A DNA stretch of 11,972 bases from a virus (taxonomy: Duplodnaviria > Heunggongvirae > Uroviricota > Caudoviricetes): IMG/VR virus record IMGVR_UViG_2713896773_000004, positions 1 through 11,972 of that record. One strand, written 5' to 3'. Shown piece by piece: positions 3,311 to 11,461 of the stretch (the first letter of the stretch is position 1; each line of letters begins with the position of its first letter). The position numbers were made by a program, and so were the translations under genes. A model generated the notes under the pieces. That model did not search any database. It worked only from the letters and a program-made list of their open reading frames with translations, and was not told the origin of the DNA.

Positions 3311-3793
3311 ATGATTAATGCCGATCCCCATTCGTCTGACTTCAACAGCTATGCCAGCGTTGGTGATCTGCGCGCGTTCGCTGCGGGGCGCGGATACACC
3401 ATCCCTGCTGAAGATGGCGAATGCAGCCAGATGCTGATGCAGGCAATGGACTTTCTGGAAGGGAAGGCCTGGCGCGGTCAGCGTTCCAGCGCATCACAGC
3501 CTCTATCCTGGCCGCGTTCCGGCGTGCGCTTCGATGGTGTTGACCTGTCGAATGATGCGATTCCACAGCGCCTGATTGATGCTCAATGTCGCCTGGCCAT
3601 CGAATCGCAGGAGATTGACCTCACCCCGTCGGTCGCTGGCGGTGGGGCGGTTACGATGGAGCGCGTCGAGGGTGCGGTAACAGTCCAGTATGAGCCGGGA
3701 ACGAATAAAGCTTCTCCGTCATTCCCATGGTTCTATTCCGCACTGCGCGGGCTTGTAGTGGGCGGCAACCAGGTCCGGGTCGAAAGGGGGTAG
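3311..3793 (+). CDS. Putative head-tail connector / adaptor protein
   Basis: 160-aa ORF with GAGGAG RBS. First of four tightly packed small genes between the capsid and major tail genes, the canonical siphovirus connector/neck block. Assignment is by position and size, not by recognised homology. Confidence 0.4.
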   Translation: MINADPHSSDFNSYASVGDLRAFAAGRGYTIPAEDGECSQMLMQAMDFLEGKAWRGQRSSASQPLSWPRSGVRFDGVDLSNDAIPQRLIDAQCRLAIESQEIDLTPSVAGGGAVTMERVEGAVTVQYEPGTNKASPSFPWFYSALRGLVVGGNQVRVERG

Positions 3794-3794
3794 C

Positions 3795-4148
3795 ATGGCA
3801 ATCGACTATCGCCGCATGCGCGCGACCGCGACCCGACTGCTGACCGAGAACGGGAAGGCATATCAGCTTACCCGCGGCGGCGGCACCATCCGTGACCAGT
3901 TCGGCAAAGAGGTCACCACCCCGGCCATTACCGCGACCGTAACCGGTGTTATCACCGAATACTCCTCCCGCGAAATCGACGGTTCCCTGATCGCCACCGG
4001 CGACAAGAAGCTGGCGGCCACTTTCGAGACGGAAGTGCGCATCGATGACCGCATCGAAATCGACAGCAAAAAGTGGCGCGTGGTACAGCCGAATCCGGTT
4101 AAGCCTGCCGATGTGCTGATCTCCTACAACATCCAGCTGAGGGCGTAA
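3795..4148 (+). CDS. Putative head-tail joining / head closure protein
   Basis: 117-aa ORF starting 2 nt after the previous stop (translational coupling), GGGGG upstream. Position and size fit a head-tail joining protein. Confidence 0.4.
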   Translation: MAIDYRRMRATATRLLTENGKAYQLTRGGGTIRDQFGKEVTTPAITATVTGVITEYSSREIDGSLIATGDKKLAATFETEVRIDDRIEIDSKKWRVVQPNPVKPADVLISYNIQLRA

Positions 4149-4150
4149 CT

Positions 4151-4750
4151 ATGGTGGGGTCTGTTAATCAGCCGTTCCTGGCTGCCATTCAGCTGTTCGT
4201 GGATGGCTCGAAGCAGGAGATGGACGAGGTGGTGCGCCGGACGGGTATTAAAATCCTCGCTCAACTGGTTGAGATGTCCCCGGTGGGCCAACCGGATATC
4301 TGGCAGGTCAACCAGACCGCGACGGCGTACAACACTGCGGTGCGGGAGCATAACGCGACCCTGCGTGATGACCCGGCTAATCTGACCAAATCAGGACGAC
4401 TTAAGCGCGGCCTGCGCGTCAACGACTCGATGGACATCAAAAAGCCTGAGGGCTATGTCGGCGGGCGGTTTAAAAACAACTGGTATGTGGGCTTTGACAG
4501 CCAGCCAAGCCAATCCAACGACACCCCCGACGCTTCCGGCCAGGGTTCCAACTCCCGCGGTCTGGCAGTGCTCGAGGTGTTCCGGGTAGGGCAGGTCAGC
4601 TCGATTTTCTTCACCAATAATCTGCCATATGCGGCAGCACTGGAGAACGGGCATTCCGGCCAGGCACCCGGCGGCATGGTGGGCATCACTGCGCTGGATG
4701 CCGCGCAGTTGTTCCGTGAGGCAATGAGCGAGGTGCGCAATGGCCAGTGA
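4151..4750 (+). CDS. Putative tail completion / neck protein (HK97 gp10-like position)
   Basis: 199-aa ORF starting 3 nt after the previous stop. Third gene of the connector block. Family assignment by synteny only. Confidence 0.4.
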   Translation: MVGSVNQPFLAAIQLFVDGSKQEMDEVVRRTGIKILAQLVEMSPVGQPDIWQVNQTATAYNTAVREHNATLRDDPANLTKSGRLKRGLRVNDSMDIKKPEGYVGGRFKNNWYVGFDSQPSQSNDTPDASGQGSNSRGLAVLEVFRVGQVSSIFFTNNLPYAAALENGHSGQAPGGMVGITALDAAQLFREAMSEVRNGQ

Positions 4751-5189
4751 CCAGTCAATGCGAATTGCTGAACTACTGGAGAGCCGCATTGCGGTTATCT
4801 GCTTATCGCTTGGGCTGCCCGTAGCCTGGCCGAACATACCGTTTACTCCCCCGGATAGCTCACCATACGGGCGTGTTTATGTTCTGCCGGCACAGACGGT
4901 GGGGCAAGACCTGGAAGGTCAATTGCGAACCTATCAGGGCATCCTGCAGCTCAACATCATTGCGCCAGCAGGCAGCGGCGTGACGCAGGCCAGAGGGCTG
5001 GCTAAATCTGTCGCTGATGCATTTCCTGAAGGGCTTGCGCTGGTGGATGGTGACCTGACTGTTTATATCAATGGGCCGCCGCAGGTGAGACAACCCATCC
5101 AGGACCGGCCAACCTCGGCGTCCAACGGGTCCAGTGGCTCCATAACCTACACCATTCCCGTCAGCATGCAGTACCGCGCTGACTACTGA
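4740..5189 (+). CDS. Putative tail terminator protein (gpU-like position)
   Basis: 149-aa ORF whose ATG (4740) overlaps the previous gene by 11 nt (ATGGCCAGTGA). Last small gene before the major tail gene, the position of the tail terminator in lambda-like clusters. Followed by a terminator. Confidence 0.45.
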   Translation: MASDQSMRIAELLESRIAVICLSLGLPVAWPNIPFTPPDSSPYGRVYVLPAQTVGQDLEGQLRTYQGILQLNIIAPAGSGVTQARGLAKSVADAFPEGLALVDGDLTVYINGPPQVRQPIQDRPTSASNGSSGSITYTIPVSMQYRADY

Positions 5190-5235: not shown

Positions 5236-6168
5236 ATGGCATTCGCAATCCCTAACGGCTCGCGTGTTAACGTGGCCAAGGCCTATCAGGCTCCCATCAC
5301 CTTTACCGCTGCCTCTAACGCTACTGAATGCGAACTGACTGTTGCATCTGCCGCTGGCATCCTGGCGGGCGACGTAGTGCAGGTGAGCTCCGGCTGGCTA
5401 AAACTCGATAATATGGTGCTGCGCGTTAAATCCGTAGCCGGTACCAAAATCGTGCTGGATTCGTTCGATACCTCTGACACCACCAAATTCCCGGCAGGCA
5501 CTGGCGCGGGCACGCTGCGTAAAATCGACACGTGGATCACGATGCCGCAGGTGATGACCCTCTCCACAGAGGGTGGTGACCAGCAGACCATCAGCGTGCA
5601 GTTCCTTGAAGACGATAAGGCCCGTACCATCCCGACCTTCAAAAACGCCGTGGTGCAGGTCTACACCTTCGCGCACGATCCGCTGCTGGCAATTTACAAG
5701 CGTCTGAGTGAACTTGACGAATCCAGCGACACCACTGCTGTGTGGTTCCATAACCCGCGCGGCAAAGCGGACCGTTATTACTCTGCCAAAGTGTCTTTCC
5801 AGAAGGTGCCTAAGACCGAAATCAACGCCGTGGAAAGCAACGAAGCGCGCATGAACTTCGAATCGGATATGCAGATTTACCCGATCGCCGATTCATCCGT
5901 TACGCCGCTGGCGTTCCTGACTGATCTGCCATCAACCAAAGCAGTTAGTGTTGGAGATGCGCTCGATTTAGCCGTCGTTATGCAAGGCGGCTCAGCCCCT
6001 TACACCTACGTGTGGAAGAAAGGAAGCTCCGCAATTCCGGGCAAAACCGCCTCGACGTTCAACATTTCGTCTGTCTCATCCGGTGATGCTGGCGTTTATA
6101 CCTGCGAAGTCACTGACGCCGCAGGCAAGACCCTAACGTCGGCGGCATGCACCGTTACTGTCAGCTAA
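5236..6168 (+). CDS. Major tail (tube) protein with C-terminal Ig-like domain
   Basis: 310-aa ORF with RBS CAGGAGAG. Sits between the tail terminator and the G/GT chaperone, as lambda V does. C-terminal roughly 80 aa (AVSVGDALDLAVVMQGGSAPYTYVWKKGSS ... SGDAGVYTCEVTDAAGKTLTSAACTVTVS) has the Y-x-C and W hallmarks of an Ig-like domain of the kind appended to many phage tail tube and capsid proteins. Confidence 0.7.
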   Translation: MAFAIPNGSRVNVAKAYQAPITFTAASNATECELTVASAAGILAGDVVQVSSGWLKLDNMVLRVKSVAGTKIVLDSFDTSDTTKFPAGTGAGTLRKIDTWITMPQVMTLSTEGGDQQTISVQFLEDDKARTIPTFKNAVVQVYTFAHDPLLAIYKRLSELDESSDTTAVWFHNPRGKADRYYSAKVSFQKVPKTEINAVESNEARMNFESDMQIYPIADSSVTPLAFLTDLPSTKAVSVGDALDLAVVMQGGSAPYTYVWKKGSSAIPGKTASTFNISSVSSGDAGVYTCEVTDAAGKTLTSAACTVTVS

Positions 6169-6384: not shown

Positions 6385-6915
6385 ATGAATCACCCAACCG
6401 TCTCAGTGAATGGGGTCTCCGTCCGCGTTGATGACGAAGGCCGGTACAGTCTTAACGATCTTCATGCGGCAGCGGTAGCTAACGGAGAGGCTACTGAGTC
6501 ACAAAGGCCCAGCGTCTTCCTGCGTAGCGCGCAGATCAAACGCTTCGTTAAAGCGCTAAAATCCAAAGCACTAAAAAGTGCTTCGGAACAAAATCAACCA
6601 CTTAAGGTTATAAAAGGCGGTGATCAAAGTGGTGCATGGGGCATTGAACTTCTGGCAATCCGCTATGCCGCCTGGATAAAGCCAGAGTTTGAGATTGAAG
6701 TGTACGAAGTATTTAGAACAGTGGTGCGTCTTGGTATCAGTGCCATGTCCCGCCTGAACAAAATCGACCACATCATCAACACTGAAACCAAGGCAATTAG
6801 CCAGTGTGCCAGCCAAATGGCCAAGTGGGGTGTTGGTGGTCGCAAGCAGCTATTACATGCAGCCCGGGATCGCGTCGCCGACGAAGTCCAGATGTATCTG
6901 CCCGGCATTAACTAA
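6385..6915 (+). CDS. KilA-N domain protein (moron)
   Basis: 176-aa ORF with AAAAGG upstream. N-terminus VSVNGVSVRVDDEGRYSLNDLHAAA ... SVFLRSAQIKRFVKAL ... GAWGIELLAIRYAAWIKPEFEIEVYEVF matches the KilA-N pattern I recall (V..G..IRV...GRYSLNDLH.A ... F.R ... W..P.F). C-terminal roughly 70 aa unrecognised. Lies in a 786-bp gap between the major tail gene and chaperone G, with terminators on both sides. Confidence 0.6.
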   Translation: MNHPTVSVNGVSVRVDDEGRYSLNDLHAAAVANGEATESQRPSVFLRSAQIKRFVKALKSKALKSASEQNQPLKVIKGGDQSGAWGIELLAIRYAAWIKPEFEIEVYEVFRTVVRLGISAMSRLNKIDHIINTETKAISQCASQMAKWGVGGRKQLLHAARDRVADEVQMYLPGIN

Positions 6916-6954: not shown

Positions 6955-7293
6955 ATGACCAAATTCTCCCTGATCCCGAACCCGACCTTCTCCGTTACCG
7001 CCAGCATCCCGCGCGCTGGTGCTGAAGACGGCAAGCTGACCTTTACCTTCCGCCACAAGACACTGGAAGAGCTGCGCTCTATGGATGAAAAGCTGCAAAA
7101 GTCGGCTGAAGGTAAAAAGGCTGCTATCGAGCCGCAGGCCGACTACCTCATGGAAATTGTCGAGGGGTGGGCACTACCTGACGAGTTCACCCGCGACAAC
7201 GTTATTGTCCTTCTTCAGAACTACCCGCGCGCGTTCGACAGCATCGGTCTGGCCTACACCAAAGAGCTGATGGGTATCCGCGAAAAAAACTAA
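6955..7293 (+). CDS. Tail assembly chaperone (lambda gpG-like)
   Basis: 112-aa ORF with AAGGAA RBS, immediately upstream of the tape measure gene. Ends with a slippery heptamer A_AAA_AAC immediately 5' of its stop codon, and the -1 frame continues open to the tape measure start. Confidence 0.65.
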   Translation: MTKFSLIPNPTFSVTASIPRAGAEDGKLTFTFRHKTLEELRSMDEKLQKSAEGKKAAIEPQADYLMEIVEGWALPDEFTRDNVIVLLQNYPRAFDSIGLAYTKELMGIREKN

Positions 7294-7598
7294 GGCAGGT
7301 CGCCGCAGCGTTGTACACGCCGGGACCGACTCTCGCGGAGTTAGCCGCTTTTGGTTTGACGCCTGAGGACGTGGAGGAAGAGGTGGGTATCCTGCCCTCT
7401 GTGTGGAAGTCTTTCACCATCTTCTCTGCCCTGGCAACCCAGTGGCGCGTCGGCGCGAGCGGGGCGACCGGCCTTGATTACAACGTTCTCCCCTGGATGT
7501 TCGAGTTACACGGGGTTGAGGATGCGGCGGCCTGCATGGCTGACCTTCAAATTATGGAAAGCGAGGCTCTCAAGGTAATGCATAAGGAGACGAAATAA
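6955..7598 (+). CDS. Tail assembly chaperone frameshift fusion (gpGT-like), made by -1 programmed ribosomal frameshift at 7284-7290
   Basis: 0-frame codons GAA AAA AAC TAA place the heptamer A_AAA_AAC at 7284-7290. After a -1 slip, reading continues CTA AGG CAG ... (LRQVAAALYTPGPTLAEL...) to the TAA at 7596-7598. This is the same frame as track ORF 7311..7598, which has no credible independent start (TTG, no RBS). Predicted fusion is about 214 aa. Confidence 0.6.
7284..7290 (+). other. -1 programmed ribosomal frameshift slippery heptamer A_AAA_AAC
   Basis: AAAAAAC in X_XXY_YYZ register relative to the G reading frame, directly upstream of the G stop codon. Confidence 0.6.
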
Positions 7599-10500
7599 TG
7601 ACAGACCAGATCGCCTCGATTACTTTGCGGGCCGATGTTTCTGACCTGAAAACAGCCAGCAACGAACTGGATAAACTCGGCCAGGCGGCGGCCGGTGCTG
7701 TAGATAAAGCAGATGATCTGAATAGCGTGTTTCGCGCTGGCGCTGAATCTGCGAAGCAAGGCAGCGAAGGACTCAAGGAGCAGCAGAACGCGCTCAAAGG
7801 GCTGCTGGAGAATATCGACCCGGTTACCAAGGCCTTAAACCGCCTGGATGAGCAGCAAGAATCGCTGCGGAAATTCCAGGCCAAAGGTTTCCTGGATACC
7901 GATACCTTTCAGGCATACAACAAAATCCTGGATGACACCCGCCTCAAGCTGACCGACACCGGAGAAGCCGCGGCGCGCGCTCAGGCTGAATTAGCCGCTA
8001 CCCAGGCGGCAGAAAAGCAGTCCGCAGCGTTAAAGAACCTTCTTGGATCCATCGACCCGACTATCCGCGCGTTCAATTCGTTGGATGAACAGCACGCACA
8101 GCTGGTGGAACATTTCGAAGCTGGGCGCATTAACGGTGCTCAGTTCGAGCACTTCAACACAATCCTTAACCAGACGCGTGAGCGCCTCTCTGGTGTCGCT
8201 GACGTACTACCAGAGGCGCTATCCCGGCAGGAAGCTGCTGCCCGGCGCGCTGGAATCTCCGTTGGTCAGTACAGCGCAGCAATGCGCACGCTTCCGGCGC
8301 AATTCACCGATATCGCCACGCAGCTGGCTGGCGGTCAGTCGCCGTTCCTGATTCTGCTGCAACAGGGCGGGCAGATTAAAGACCAGTTCGGCTCGGTTCA
8401 GGGGGCGCTGTCCGGCGTCGGCGAATACATCCGCAGCATGGCTGGGATGATTAACCCTACCACAATCGCACTTGGTGGGCTGATTGGCACGATCGGCCTG
8501 CTGGCTGCCGCAGCGTATAACTCCTCGGAGCAATTTGAGCAGGTGGCACGCTCTGTCATCATGATGGGTGGGGCTGGCTTCTCCTCAATGCAGCAGCTCA
8601 ACCAGGCCGCTGAGGAAGTGGCTGGCAAGACGAATACATCGATTAGCTCCACCGTCGATACGCTGGTTACGTTGAACGATACTGGCAAATATACCGCAAG
8701 CCAGATGAAGCAGGTCGCAACGACCATCACCCTCATGGGTAAGGCCGGAAATGATACCAAAGCGGCAATAAGCGACTTCGGAAAGATTGTCAGCGATCCG
8801 GTTAAAGGGCTTGCCAGCCTCAATGAACAATATGGTTTCGTTGATGAAGCCATGATCAAGCACATTATCCAGCTACGTAAGCAGAAGGGTGAGCAGGCGG
8901 CTGTTACCGAAGCTATTGAGCTGTTTGCAGGCGTCATGGCAAAGCGCGCAGAGGAGACCAACAAAGCGACCGATAATATCGGTCAAACGTGGGAAAACCT
9001 TAAAAAGAGCGCTTCTGACACCTTTGGCGATATAGGTATTACCGTGCGCGCATGGGGAAACCAGATCATTGATATTTTCGAACTGGTTAAATCCTCGATC
9101 AAAGACTTGTTCCTCAATATCACCTCTCTGGACGCCAAGTTCACCAGCACCATCGCTGGCTGGGCAGACAAAATCCCGGGTGGCGGTGCGCTGGCTAATT
9201 TCCTCGGCATGGACGTTGAGGCAATGAAAAAGGCTGGAGCGGAGGCGGACAAAGAGATTGAGGCGAACAAAAAACGCTATAACGAGCTTTGGAAGCGCGT
9301 CACTGCGCCTAACGCACAGGCAAACTATGAGGCTGAAGCGCGAGGGTCTAACGTAAAAGGTGATGGAGGAACAAGTCGAGAATCAAGAGACGCAGTCTCG
9401 AAGCTTGCACAAGACTCAGACAAAAAGACCAAAGAGGCAAAAGCCACGCTGGATGCTGGCGATCGCACCCTGGAGAACTACCGCGCCCAGGCCAGAACGT
9501 TAACTGAAACGCTCGAGACCCTCCGACAAACAGGCGAAACCCACGCTAAAAACACCGAGTTCAGTAAACAGCAATCTCGATTTGCTGAATTGGATGAGGC
9601 AGCCAAAACCCGCGCGTTGACTGCTCAGGAAAAATCTTTACTGTCGAGCCGTGAGGCGATTCTGAACGCCGCCAAGGTGGTTGATCAGAAGAACAAGGAA
9701 GTAGAGGCGCAGCAGAAGATTAACGGCCTGGCGCAGCAGGCGAATAAATACGTCACGCAGATGTCGGAAAAAACCGATGCATTGCGTGATAGTGTAGGCC
9801 TCAGCAGTCGGCAAACGCAGCGCATGATGGAAGAGGCACAGCTTCGCCAGGGCTGGCTCAACGGTGGCGGTAAGCTTGATGATGCTGGCTATGAGAAAGA
9901 ACTGGCAGCCCTCAGAAATTATTACGCTGAAGAGGATAAGCTGCGCGGCGATTGGAAATCAGGTGCTATCAGCGGCTGGAATGAGTATCTGGACGCTGCC
10001 ACCAATACCTACGATGCCGTGAAGAATGTTGCCAGCTCCACGCTAACAGGCCTGAGCGACATGCTGACCGAGCTCATGACGACCGGCAAAGCATCGGTCA
10101 AAGAGTTCGGCAAATCCATGCTCAAGATGATCCTGGATGTGACGAACCGCCTCATGGTGGCCTACGCGGTGCAAGCTGCTATGGGATGGATCAGTGGGAG
10201 CGCGGGAGGTGGCGCTACACCCGGCGGTGCTTATGCCAATGCGGCCGCTGGTGTAACGTTCAATGCTAAAGGCGGCGTATACGAATCACCCGGCCTCAGT
10301 AAATATGTGAATGGCGTCTACGATTCTCCTCAATATTTCACATTCCAGGGCGCGTCGAAGTTTGCCAAAGGCGGGGTATTCGCTGAGGCAGGGGCTGAGG
10401 CGATCATGCCGCTGACGCGGGATTCTGCTGGTCGGCTTGGTGTCAGGGCGCAAGGCGGGGGCGGTGCGCAGCCTCAGGTCAATATTGATATCTACGTTGA

Positions 10501-10651
10501 TAACAAGGGCAACACATCATCAAATACGTCCGGAGACGGCAGTGCTGCGGCGCGTGCCTTAGGCAAGGAAATTGAAGCAAAGGTTACGGAGATCCTCGTG
10601 AGGGCCGCTCGGAGTGATGGTTTCCTGGGCAAAACGTTCCAACCCAAATAA
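7598..10651 (+). CDS. H: Tail tape measure protein (lambda gpH homologue)
   Basis: 1017-aa ORF whose ATG overlaps the upstream stop (TAATG), RBS AAGGAGA. Segment [53 protein letters not shown] is near-identical to the lambda gpH segment I recall ([49 protein letters not shown]). Also has hydrophobic Gly-rich segments and a Gly/Ala-rich C-terminus typical of tape measure proteins. Confidence 0.9.
   Translation: [1017 protein letters not shown]
7790..8188 (+). repeat. Intragenic tandem duplication in the tape measure N-terminal region (two diverged copies of about 54 aa, period 79 aa)
   Basis: Residues 65-118 ([54 protein letters not shown]) and 144-197 ([54 protein letters not shown]) align without gaps at about 44% identity. 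Nucleotide copies are diverged, sharing short strings such as ATCGACCC. Confidence 0.7.
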
Positions 10652-10722: not shown

Positions 10723-10753
10723 GAGCTAAACCATGCTAATCAAGGGGATGATA

Positions 10754-11128
10754 ATGAAGGCGCTCAAAATTGGCCTTGCAGGGATTGTTGTTATTTACTT
10801 GCTCATCAATGCCAGTAAATCACAAGAGATAAAAAGCGAAGATATACCTGCGTTTGCTAAAAGTGAGTCAAATGTATGGATAGCTAATACACTGGGCCAG
10901 CCGGGCGCAGACGTCATCAAAAGCTCTACCTACTACCTTAAGCGTGAGATTCCAGAAGAGGATATTGTTTATGGCTATCTTTGTGGAACCATAACAACTG
11001 GCGAAAGATTCTTTACTGAGGTCTCGATCAATAAGCGCAAGCACACGTCTGGCATTTTCAAAAATATGATATTTGATAAACGCAATGCAAAGACGTTTAA
11101 TCAGATCTGGAACACTGAGTGTAAGTAA
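10754..11128 (+). CDS. Hypothetical secreted or membrane-anchored protein with N-terminal signal peptide (cargo island gene A)
   Basis: Track ORF 10733..11128. I prefer ATG 10754 (or 10748), 6 nt after AAGGGG. N-terminus MKALKIGLAGIVVIYLLINA-SKSQ has a basic n-region, hydrophobic core and Ala at the putative cleavage site, with no lipobox Cys. Mature part has two Cys. Local GC is about 40%. No family recognised. Confidence 0.55.
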   Translation: MKALKIGLAGIVVIYLLINASKSQEIKSEDIPAFAKSESNVWIANTLGQPGADVIKSSTYYLKREIPEEDIVYGYLCGTITTGERFFTEVSINKRKHTSGIFKNMIFDKRNAKTFNQIWNTECK

Positions 11129-11203: not shown

Positions 11204-11461
11204 ATGGAAATGACTGTAGGATTCCCTGAAATGGGTTCGCGATTTGAATCTGTAAGCTTCGATCCAGATTTAGAAATTAAAATGATAAAGACTGTCAGAA
11301 CCAAAATTACAGTTTGCAAGCTTGAGCAAATCAATGCGCCTCATGAACTGGTGTTTATCTATCAGGAGGATTTCAATCCAGGCAGCTCTTTTGCCGAAGT
11401 CGAAGCACGCGCCAAAGAATATGCCAGTAAGGCAATTGCCGGATTGAAAACCCCGGCTTAA
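11204..11461 (+). CDS. Hypothetical small acidic protein (cargo island gene B, 85 aa)
   Basis: ORF with AGGAGA RBS 6 nt upstream of ATG 11204. AT-rich codon usage unlike the structural genes. Its stop codon lies in the loop of a hairpin that can terminate the convergent minus-strand gene. No family recognised. Confidence 0.5.
   Translation: MEMTVGFPEMGSRFESVSFDPDLEIKMIKTVRTKITVCKLEQINAPHELVFIYQEDFNPGSSFAEVEARAKEYASKAIAGLKTPA

What the first reader, a model, noticed from the sequence alone, without database searches (positions are those of the whole stretch)
7790..8188. Ancient tandem duplication of a helical module in the tape measure N-terminus
Two 54-residue segments 79 residues apart align at about 44% identity without gaps. 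Lambda gpH appears to have a single related module (LDAARFDEQMARVRRHF region), and this protein is 1017 aa against 853 aa in lambda. Tape measure length sets tail length, so module duplication would give a longer tail. The diverged nucleotide copies indicate an old event.
Basis: partly seen in the sequence, partly recalled or inferred. Interest (0 to 1): 0.4.

Follow-up and report, generated by a model that had tools for sequence, protein, structure and literature searches.

The report
Repeated helical module in tape measure
The tail tape measure protein of this E. coli/Enterobacter prophage carries two old copies of a 66-residue helical unit that occurs in one to five copies in related phages and is absent from lambda; this is ordinary modular length variation in a tail ruler, not a new mechanism.

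Summary
In the 1017-aa tape measure protein (TMP, 7598-10651), aa 65-118 and 144-197 align without gaps at 23/54 identity. No shuffle of 2000 reached the observed score (p about 2e-9). The conserved unit is 66 aa (aa 57-122 and 136-201) with a 79-aa period.

The unit is one instance of a widespread family. A profile of it finds 478 protein cluster representatives, essentially all TMP-sized. They carry one to five tandem copies just upstream of the TMP_2 domain, and coliphage T1 gp38 has one. No Pfam or NCBIfam model covers it. AlphaFold predicts three helices (pLDDT 91) with an invariant Pro and a conserved Gly at the breaks.

Copy number changes by recombination. One relative has a single c1/c2 hybrid unit, an exact 79-aa collapse. 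Near-identical Pantoea-type TMPs carry 4 or 1 units.

The lambda claim fails. Lambda's LDAARFDEQ segment is an N-terminal leader that precedes the units in other proteins, and lambda has no copy. The two units therefore explain 159 of the 164 extra residues.

The longer tail is inferred, not shown. The old divergence is supported, but in-place duplication is not established.

The parts
7598..10651 (+). Tail tape measure protein gene, 1017 aa, lambda family
   Evidence: ORF. Pfam TMP_2 179 bits and Tape_meas_lam_C 75 bits. TIGR01541 159 bits. Collinear with lambda gpH and 87.6% nt identical to the HK639 TMP gene. The exact protein is on record in E. coli.
7598..7765 (+). N-terminal leader, aa 1-56 (MTDQIASITLRADVSDLKTASNELDKL...)
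   Evidence: Shared with P0145, P0030 and P0046. Lambda-type TMPs carry a different leader in the same position. This reading comes from the sequences directly.
7766..7963 (+). Module copy 1, aa 57-122 (c1; Pro75, Gly97); common subtype
   Evidence: Profile match E 2e-28. Predicted helices at aa 59-73, 75-95 and 101-121, pLDDT 91. 50-58% identical to the single units of other TMPs.
7964..8002 (+). Ala/Gln-rich linker between the copies, aa 123-135
   Evidence: Lies between the two profile matches and is helical in the 265-aa model.
8003..8200 (+). Module copy 2, aa 136-201 (c2; Pro154, Gly176); rarer subtype
   Evidence: Profile match E 5e-27. 97% identical to HK639 c2, and 62-66% identical to the single units of P0144 and P0145.
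8237..8866 (+). TMP_2 domain, aa 214-423, beginning with the conserved AGISVGQY...QLAGGQSP block used here as an anchor
   Evidence: Pfam PF06791, E 1e-52. The block is aligned with lambda gpH aa 55 onward.
9947..10171 (+). Tape_meas_lam_C domain, aa 784-858
   Evidence: Pfam PF09718, E 4e-21.
6955..7293 (+). Tail assembly chaperone G
   Evidence: Pfam Phage_TAC_4, E 2.5e-27. PHROG 569.
7284..7598 (+). -1 frame extension (T part of GT). It runs from the slippery A_AAA_AAC at 7284-7290 to a stop that overlaps the TMP start codon (TAATG).
   Evidence: Read from the sequence. The ORF 7311-7598 matches DUF1799, E 6e-17. The frameshift itself is inferred from the lambda G/GT precedent.

Best explanation
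The repeat consists of two diverged copies of a 66-residue, three-helix unit: helix, invariant Pro, helix, Gly-containing loop, helix. The consensus is Q..eL..LLgqIDPv.aAL.rLD.qq.kL......Glld.d.F..Yn..l...R..L.

The unit belongs to a family that sits between the N-terminal leader and the TMP_2 domain of lambda/T1-type tape measure proteins of phages infecting Gammaproteobacteria. Copy number in the family runs from zero in lambda, through one in T1, to five. It changes by in-register recombination between units or between genes.

Each unit plus its linker adds about 75-79 residues to the head-proximal (N-terminal) end of the ruler without any compensating loss elsewhere. The two units here make this protein 159 residues longer than lambda gpH in that region.

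Steps shown: the units exist, they form a family, copy number varies, total protein length rises with copy number, and recombinant forms exist.

Steps inferred: tail tube polymerisation stops where the tape measure ends, so the extra residues should lengthen the tail. The estimate is roughly 35-38 tube rings against 32 in lambda.
For: - Repeat significance.
- Family size: a profile of ten units (A1) finds 478 cluster representatives at E<=1e-3 and 218 at E<=1e-10. They are almost all 850-1300 aa, with some up to 1975 aa and some short fragments, and carry 1-6 matched stretches.
- Copy numbers: my own count gives 102 proteins with one unit, 31 with two, 9 with three, 5 with four and 1 with five. 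The units are tandem, with periods of about 60-80 aa, in the N-terminal 40-390 aa.
- Host range: tblastn finds the unit in 70 phage records, under TMP annotations in nearly all rows listed. Hosts include Pseudomonas, Escherichia, Klebsiella, Stenotrophomonas and Pectobacterium.
- T1: gp38 (PDB 9L9P_B) has one unit at aa 60-119.
- Length: over 108 full-length representatives, total length rises with copy number (slope 48-60 aa per copy, Spearman 0.39-0.41, p about 3e-5). The part after the anchor block does not change (rho 0.00).
- Versus lambda: the region before the anchor is 159 aa longer here, out of a total difference of 164 aa.
- Recombination, case 1: P0145 has this protein's leader and a single hybrid unit. 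Its first 30 positions match c1 at 29/30 and its last 36 match c2 at 25/36, an exact 79-aa collapse.
- Recombination, case 2: within one 90%-identity cluster, TMPs of 1195 aa carry 4 units and those of 969 aa carry 1, with near-identical flanks.
- Duplication age: sister copies within one protein range from 17% to 68% identity, so duplications of several ages exist.
- Ruler principle: in-frame deletions and duplications in the TMPs of lambda and TP901-1 change tail length in proportion (Katsura & Hendrix 1984 and Pedersen 2000, as summarised in PMC5099701).
Against: - No tail length is available for this prophage or for HK639.
- The TMP N-terminus has not been resolved in any structure. In T1 only residues 921-956 were built, and most of lambda gpH* is unresolved.
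- The invariant Pro and >=90% conserved Gly at fixed positions, together with the confident compact model, suggest a folded helix-loop-helix unit rather than a continuous extended helix. Such a unit would add less length per residue.
- T1 (957 aa, about 34 rings) has only about 2 more rings than lambda (853 aa, 32 rings by my own knowledge) for 104 more residues.
- A simple spacer would not need this degree of sequence conservation.
- The length correlation uses cluster representatives that are not phylogenetically independent.
Confidence: 0.6

Rival explanations
1. The units are folded helical-hairpin domains with a job of their own, and ruler length is a side effect. One candidate job is forming part of the hexameric trans-envelope conduit that gpH* builds after ejection. 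Others are docking the G/GT chaperone, or meeting the tail terminator or the leading DNA end at the head-proximal end of the tube. Copy number would then tune that function, and each unit would add much less than 0.15 nm per residue to the tail.
For: - Pro is invariant at unit position 19, and Gly is at least 90% conserved at position 41, across 78-80 diverse units.
- The AlphaFold model of one unit has pLDDT 91 and pTM 0.68, with helices 3-17, 19-39 and 45-65.
- Its best superpositions are antiparallel helical hairpins, at 0.6-0.8 A over 45-49 residues.
- Independently predicted viral TMPs fold the same way (TM 0.78-0.88).
- Lambda gpH* is reported as hexameric and as the main component of the periplasmic channel. 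Hexamer models of gpH residues 1-319 form a tube (PMC12617516).
- T1 gains few rings for its extra N-terminal residues.
Against: - Lambda works with no unit. Near-identical TMPs carry 1 or 4 units. Hybrid units occur. No fixed number or particular copy is therefore required.
- Monomer AlphaFold models tend to fold long helices back on themselves.
- Neither Foldseek search gave a significant match (best E 0.56 in PDB and 0.007 in BFVD).
- No interaction data exist.
Confidence: 0.25
2. This rival concerns origin only. The two-copy arrangement was not made by a tandem duplication in this lineage. It came from recombination joining two TMP genes that each carried one unit of a different subtype: a leader plus c1 from one, and c2 plus a lambda-type TMP_2 region from the other.
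For: - c1 is 52-56% identical to the single units of P0173, P0155, P0153 and P0218.
- c2 is 50-66% identical to the single units of P0144, P0150 and P0029, which follow lambda-type leaders and precede the same ALSRQ..AGISVGQY block.
- c1 and c2 are only 37% identical over 66 columns.
- 69 units in the family are nearer c1 and 13 are nearer c2.
- TMP genes here are visibly mosaic. P0145 and P0314 change partners on either side of the unit region.
Against: - The same pattern would follow from one very old duplication with later losses.
- The unit is short (66 aa), so subtype trees are weak, and 114 units are ambiguous.
- All close relatives (HK639, P0121, P0123, and 12 complete E. coli genomes) already have both copies. 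No intermediate is seen.
Confidence: 0.4
3. The similarity is a chance or compositional effect of two Ala/Gln/Leu-rich coiled-coil stretches, not homology.
For: The region is helical and compositionally biased. It gives weak sub-threshold matches to SMC, Rad50 and other coiled-coil families.
Against: - No shuffle of 2000 reached the observed score; Gumbel p is about 2e-9.
- The alignment is ungapped, with fixed IDP, LDEQ, G, F and R positions.
- The same unit is recovered with E down to 1e-56 in hundreds of TMPs.
Confidence: 0.01

Closest known systems
Bacteriophage lambda gpH (tail tape measure protein; PDB 8IYK/8K35)
   Same: Same family. It has the TMP_2 and Tape_meas_lam_C domains, aligns collinearly from the AGISVGQY block to the C-terminus, and holds the same gene position after G/GT.
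   Different: Lambda has a different N-terminal leader and no unit. The region before the anchor block is 47-55 aa in lambda against 206-214 aa here. Lambda gpH is 853 aa against 1017 aa.
Escherichia phage HK639 tape measure protein (YP_004934045, 1024 aa)
   Same: Closest sequenced phage. The gene is 87.6% nt identical over 83% of its length. It has the same leader and the same two units at the same positions; c2 is 97% identical.
   Different: c1 is only 63% identical, and a central stretch (about aa 470-600) diverges. The repeat is not annotated in the record.
Coliphage T1 gp38 tape measure protein (PDB 9L9P chain B, 957 aa)
   Same: Homologous over aa 1-884 (E 1e-103). It has a similar leader and one unit at aa 60-119. 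Its virion structure is solved: about 34 tube rings with a 42 A rise.
   Different: T1 has one unit, not two. A different helical segment (..AELMELKAAELG..) follows the unit. Only residues 921-956 are resolved, so the unit has no experimental structure.
Tandem repeat units of other tape measure proteins (11/18-residue Trp/Phe repeats of TP901-1, p2 and mycobacteriophages; Belcaid et al. 2011; Mahony et al. 2016)
   Same: Same principle. Repeated units inside a TMP are gained and lost, and they are proposed to allow tail length to vary. Experimental duplication or deletion changes tail length in proportion.
   Different: The unit here is 66 aa with a 60-80 aa period. It is predicted to be a three-helix unit with fixed Pro and Gly breaks. 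It is confined to the N-terminal end, next to TMP_2, and is not a run of short aromatic-marked repeats.

Membership tests
Lambda-family tail tape measure protein | TMP_2 domain (PF06791) above Pfam's gathering score | tested here: met
   179.3 bits against a cut-off of 30.2, at aa 214-423.
Lambda-family tail tape measure protein | Lambda C-terminal tape measure domain (PF09718 / TIGR01541) | tested here: met
   PF09718 scores 75.3 bits against a cut-off of 23. TIGR01541 scores 159.4 bits against 104.75.
Lambda-family tail tape measure protein | Gene lies after the major tail gene and a G/GT chaperone pair with a -1 slippery site | tested here: met
   The major tail gene is at 5236-6168. Phage_TAC_4 is at 6955-7293, with A_AAA_AAC at 7284-7290 and a DUF1799 frame running to 7598.
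Lambda-family tail tape measure protein | Sets tail length in the virion | not testable with these tools
   No virion data were found for this prophage or for HK639.
N-terminal TMP module family defined here (profiles A1, A3 and A5; no Pfam or NCBIfam model) | Significant match to a profile built from units of other proteins, with Pro at position 19 and Gly at position 41 | tested here: met
   Two matches, E 2e-28 and 5e-27. The residues are Pro75/Gly97 and Pro154/Gly176.
N-terminal TMP module family defined here (profiles A1, A3 and A5; no Pfam or NCBIfam model) | Located between the N-terminal leader and the TMP_2 anchor block, in tandem when multiple | tested here: met
   The units are at aa 57-122 and 136-201, and TMP_2 starts at aa 214.
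Short aromatic tandem repeats of TMPs (11/18-aa Trp/Phe units; Belcaid 2011) | Units of 11 or 18 residues marked by Trp or Phe at fixed spacing | tested here: not met
   The period is 79 aa and the unit is 66 aa. An 11/18-residue aromatic periodicity within the unit was not tested separately.
Short aromatic tandem repeats of TMPs (11/18-aa Trp/Phe units; Belcaid 2011) | Copy number differs among relatives through duplication and loss | tested here: met
   Between 0 and 5 copies across the family. There is a hybrid collapse and a 4-versus-1 difference within a 90% cluster.

The most novel reading that the evidence does not exclude
The unit may be a discrete folded helical-hairpin domain rather than a passive spacer. 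As a hexamer (or trimer) it would build a stackable segment of the post-ejection trans-envelope DNA conduit, or a head-proximal plug. Its copy number would then be selected to match the host envelope or genome-end accommodation rather than tail length. That would make the N-terminal end of lambda/T1-type tape measures a modular channel-building array.
Probability: 0.15. Interest if true: 0.55.

Novelty: new member of a known kind. Interest (0 to 1): 0.3.

Why it matters
Tape measure proteins are the textbook molecular ruler, and repeats within them are already known to come and go. This case adds a defined unit that is recognisable by profile and is not in Pfam or NCBIfam. It accounts for most N-terminal length variation among lambda/T1-type tape measures.

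The data also offer natural experiments: a hybrid one-unit form, and 4-unit versus 1-unit forms in otherwise near-identical proteins. These would allow a direct measurement of how many nanometres of tail one unit buys. That number would show whether the unresolved N-terminal part of the ruler is an extended helix or is folded back. It also bears on recent claims that gpH* is hexameric and forms the periplasmic channel.

For annotation, the unit could be made a domain model. The claim that lambda carries a copy should not be propagated.

Tried and rejected
- The search for homologous proteins returned only short or partial proteins, all under 470 aa and under 330 aa. It could neither give full-length relatives nor confirm further examples of the hybrid form. 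The full-length picture came from the search of protein representatives.
- AlphaFold on aa 1-265 with 14 sequences was poor (pLDDT 52.7) and was used only for secondary structure.
It was rerun as alignment A5.
- Foldseek against PDB and BFVD gave no significant hit, so no fold family is claimed.
- The profile-profile test of lambda-type leader against unit was negative, so the idea that the leader is a degenerate third copy was dropped.
- A relaxed profile scan found no third copy in this protein.
- The literature search for HK639 gave no morphology. The search for gpH N-terminus and chaperone binding gave nothing specific.
- Of 5426 complete E. coli genomes, 12 hold a match covering at least 80% of the N-terminal region as a single aligned piece, and none shows a one-unit variant.
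- Chance or compositional similarity was rejected.
Full report
**Setting**

The window is the structural arm of a siphovirus-type prophage. In order it holds:
- a scaffold-like gene and the major head gene (835-2744);
- head-tail adaptor, neck and tail terminator genes (3311-5189);
- a major tail protein with an Ig-like C-terminal part (5236-6168);
- a KilA-N gene (6385-6915);
- a tail assembly chaperone (6955-7293) with a -1 frame extension;
- a 1017-aa ORF at 7598-10651.

That ORF is a lambda-family tape measure protein (TMP). TMP_2 scores 179 bits at aa 214-423, Tape_meas_lam_C scores 75 bits at aa 784-858, and TIGR01541 scores 159 bits. The nearest sequenced phage is Escherichia phage HK639, at 87.6% nt identity over 83% of the gene. 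The exact protein is on record in E. coli, and its 90% cluster has members from Enterobacter, Salmonella and Citrobacter.

**The observation**

The finding's coordinates are in frame and cover aa 65-197. Segments aa 65-118 and aa 144-197 lie 79 residues apart and align without gaps at 23/54 identity. Local alignment of the two halves of the N-terminal region scores 111. Shuffles give 28.9 +/- 5.5, none of 2000 reaches the observed score, and the Gumbel p is about 2e-9.

It spans 66 residues, aa 57-122 (c1) and 136-201 (c2), joined by a 13-residue Ala/Gln linker.

The DNA copies are about 50% identical, and third codon positions match at 21/54. Only 10 of 24 conserved residues share a codon, and the longest common run is 9 nt. 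The repeat is real, it is not a compositional artefact, and it is old.

**What the unit is**

Relatives found with the N-terminal 265 aa showed the same unit, all aligning without gaps. It appears twice in a Buttiauxella protein and once in Symbiopectobacterium, Enterobacter and Regiella proteins.

A profile of ten units was searched against 1.84 billion cluster representatives. It found 478 proteins at E<=1e-3 and 218 at E<=1e-10. Almost all are of TMP size, and they carry one to six matched stretches.

Counted with my own threshold among the best 150, the numbers are:

| Units per protein | Proteins |
|---|---|
| 1 | 102 |
| 2 | 31 |
| 3 | 9 |
| 4 | 5 |
| 5 | 1 |

The units are tandem, with periods of about 60-80 aa. 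They lie within the first 40-390 residues, directly upstream of the conserved ..PAQFTD..QLAGGQ.. block of TMP_2.

tblastn finds the unit in 70 phage records, under TMP annotations in nearly all rows listed. Hosts include Pseudomonas (B3, JBD25 and others), Escherichia, Klebsiella, Stenotrophomonas, Pectobacterium, Cronobacter, Acinetobacter, Salmonella, Erwinia and Xanthomonas. Coliphage T1 gp38 (PDB 9L9P_B) has one unit at aa 60-119. Neither Pfam nor NCBIfam has a model covering aa 57-201; only sub-threshold coiled-coil noise appears.

Across 78-80 diverse units, the Pro of the IDP motif is invariant. Two Leu and a Gly are at least 90% conserved.

With that alignment, AlphaFold gives a confident model with pLDDT 91 and pTM 0.68. 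It has helix 3-17, the Pro, helix 19-39, a five-residue loop holding the Gly, and helix 45-65. Foldseek finds no significant match in PDB. The closest superpositions are plain antiparallel helical hairpins. In BFVD the best matches are other long TMP-sized phage proteins, only one of them named as a TMP in the table, that were independently predicted to fold the same way.

'Helical module' is therefore right. The fixed helix breaks suggest a helix-loop-helix unit rather than one continuous helix.

**Lambda**

It is not.
- That segment is the N-terminal leader of lambda-type TMPs. The same leader precedes one or two true units in P0027, P0029, P0144 and P0150.
- The unit profile has no significant match in lambda gpH. 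The only weak partial hit is at aa 412-440, at 8 bits.
- hhalign of the leader profile against the unit profile gives 2.4% probability.

Lambda thus has zero units. In a three-way alignment, the stretch before the AGISVGQY block is 159 residues longer here than in lambda. That equals two 79-residue periods plus one residue, out of a total length difference of 164.

**Copy number is dynamic**

Three observations show this.
- P0145 (983 aa) has this protein's leader and a single unit. Its first 30 positions match c1 at 29/30 (c2 at 15/30). Its last 36 match c2 at 25/36 (c1 at 10/36). The switch falls at LDEQ, giving an exact in-register 79-residue collapse of the pair.
- Inside one 90%-identity cluster (Pantoea vagans and metagenomes), TMPs of 1195 aa carry four units and TMPs of 969 aa carry one. 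Leaders and downstream regions are near-identical, and the 226-residue difference equals three periods.
- Sister units within one protein range from 17% to 68% identity, so duplications of several ages exist.

Over 108 full-length representatives, total length rises with copy number (slope 48-60 aa per copy, Spearman about 0.4, p about 3e-5). The part after the anchor block is unrelated to copy number (rho 0.00). The units therefore add net length. These representatives are not phylogenetically independent, so the p-values are only indicative.

**Origin of this pair**

c1 belongs to the common subtype. It is 52-56% identical to single units in P0173, P0155, P0153 and P0218. c2 belongs to a rarer subtype and is 50-66% identical to single units in P0144, P0150 and P0029. 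c1 and c2 share only 37% over the 66 columns.

Two histories fit. The duplication may predate these lineages, with later losses. Alternatively, the pair was assembled by recombination between two genes with different subtypes. I cannot separate the two. 'Ancient' holds in both cases, but 'tandem duplication in this lineage' is not shown. All close relatives (HK639, P0121, P0123) have both units, and the 12 complete E. coli genomes that hold this region match it as one uninterrupted piece.

**How it most likely works**

Established knowledge is that tail tube polymerisation proceeds from the tip complex along the TMP and stops at its N-terminal end. In-frame deletions or duplications in lambda gpH and TP901-1 TMP change tail length in proportion (Katsura & Hendrix 1984 and Pedersen 2000, as summarised in PMC5099701).

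On that basis, two extra units at the head-proximal end should lengthen the tail. The estimates are as follows.
- At 0.15 nm per residue and a 4.2 nm ring rise (the T1 value), one 79-residue period is about 2.8 rings and the pair about 5.7 rings.
- Scaling from lambda (853 aa, 32 rings by my own knowledge) gives about 38 rings.
- Scaling from the lambda-to-T1 step (+104 aa for about +2 rings) gives about 35 rings.

This step is inference. No tail measurement exists for HK639 or this prophage in the papers searched. The TMP N-terminus is unresolved in every structure consulted.

**The main rival**

The conserved Pro and Gly and the confident compact model suggest the unit is a folded domain with a role of its own. 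Recent work reports that lambda gpH* is hexameric in the tube, slides down to make room for the DNA end, and forms the periplasmic channel after ejection. Hexamer models of residues 1-319 in that work form a tube (PMC12617516). Stacked hairpin units could contribute to such a conduit, or could dock G/GT or the terminator.

Against a strict requirement, lambda needs none, near-identical proteins carry one or four, and hybrids are tolerated. The two readings are not exclusive. They differ in the predicted nanometres per unit, which is measurable.

**Comparison and novelty**

The protein is a member of the lambda TMP family, and all sequence-level criteria are met. Repeated units that are gained and lost in TMPs are already known, namely the 11/18-residue aromatic repeats of Belcaid 2011 and Mahony 2016. 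The unit here differs in kind: it is 66 aa, has three helices, and is confined to the N-terminal end. It appears uncurated, although I cannot exclude an earlier description outside the library searched (one search gave none). I rate it a new member of a known kind, of modest interest. The value lies in a clean profile and in natural variants that make the length contribution of the unresolved N-terminal region testable.

Noticed in passing
window 6955-7598: The tail assembly chaperone G (Phage_TAC_4) ends with a canonical -1 slippery heptamer A_AAA_AAC (7284-7290) just before its stop at 7291-7293. The -1 frame stays open to 7598 (DUF1799), and its stop overlaps the TMP start (TAATG). The HK639 record labels the G homologue 'tail length tape measure protein' and annotates no GT product.
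   Followed up: partly
window 6385-6915: A KilA-N domain protein (176 aa; PHROG 'transcriptional regulator') sits between the major tail gene and the chaperone gene. This is a moron-like insertion. HK639 has a 227-aa hypothetical gene flanked by annotated terminators at the same place.
   Followed up: partly
window 10733-11128 and 11204-11461: Two ORFs lie directly after the TMP gene. The first has no Pfam or PHROG match; the second has no Pfam match and was not scanned against PHROGs. In lambda gene M follows H at once. HK639 has a lipoprotein, a hypothetical gene and a YafO-family toxin between the TMP gene and the minor tail genes.
   Followed up: no
P0127/P0313 (1195 aa) versus P0314/P0316/P0320 (969 aa), one 90%-identity cluster: Pantoea-type TMPs with near-identical leaders and downstream regions carry four units or one unit, a 226-aa difference equal to three periods. 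The single unit is of a different subtype, so the unit region was exchanged rather than simply deleted.
   Followed up: partly
L002 (lambda) gpH aa 412-440: RQEELNKALKDGKILQADYNTLMAAAKKD gives a weak partial match (8.1 bits) to the second half of the unit profile. Several other TMPs show weak second hits in mid-protein. Degenerate unit-like hairpins may exist in the central ruler region.
   Followed up: no
T1 gp38 (PDB 9L9P_B) aa about 130-190; P0030 and P0046 aa about 125-200: A second kind of N-terminal segment (..AE(I/L)(L/M)E(L/M)KAA(E/Q)LG(L/V)..) lies between the unit and the TMP_2 block in these proteins. Units spaced 140-149 aa apart in P0133, P0134, P0141 and P0143 suggest that another unit type is interleaved.
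   Followed up: no
window about 9000-9400 (TMP aa about 470-600) versus L001: The central part of the TMP diverges sharply from HK639 while both flanks are near-identical. This indicates mosaic exchange inside the gene, and megablast covers only 83% of the gene in two pieces.
   Followed up: no
BFVD hits Q45Q04 (phage Jk06 JK_13P, 165 aa) and A0A0N7CDB0 (Salmonella phage 36, 158 aa): Small proteins of two Enterobacteriaceae phages (Escherichia phage Jk06, Salmonella phage 36) superpose on the unit model (TM 0.74-0.77, about 25% identity). The E-values (0.1-0.2) are not significant.
   Followed up: no
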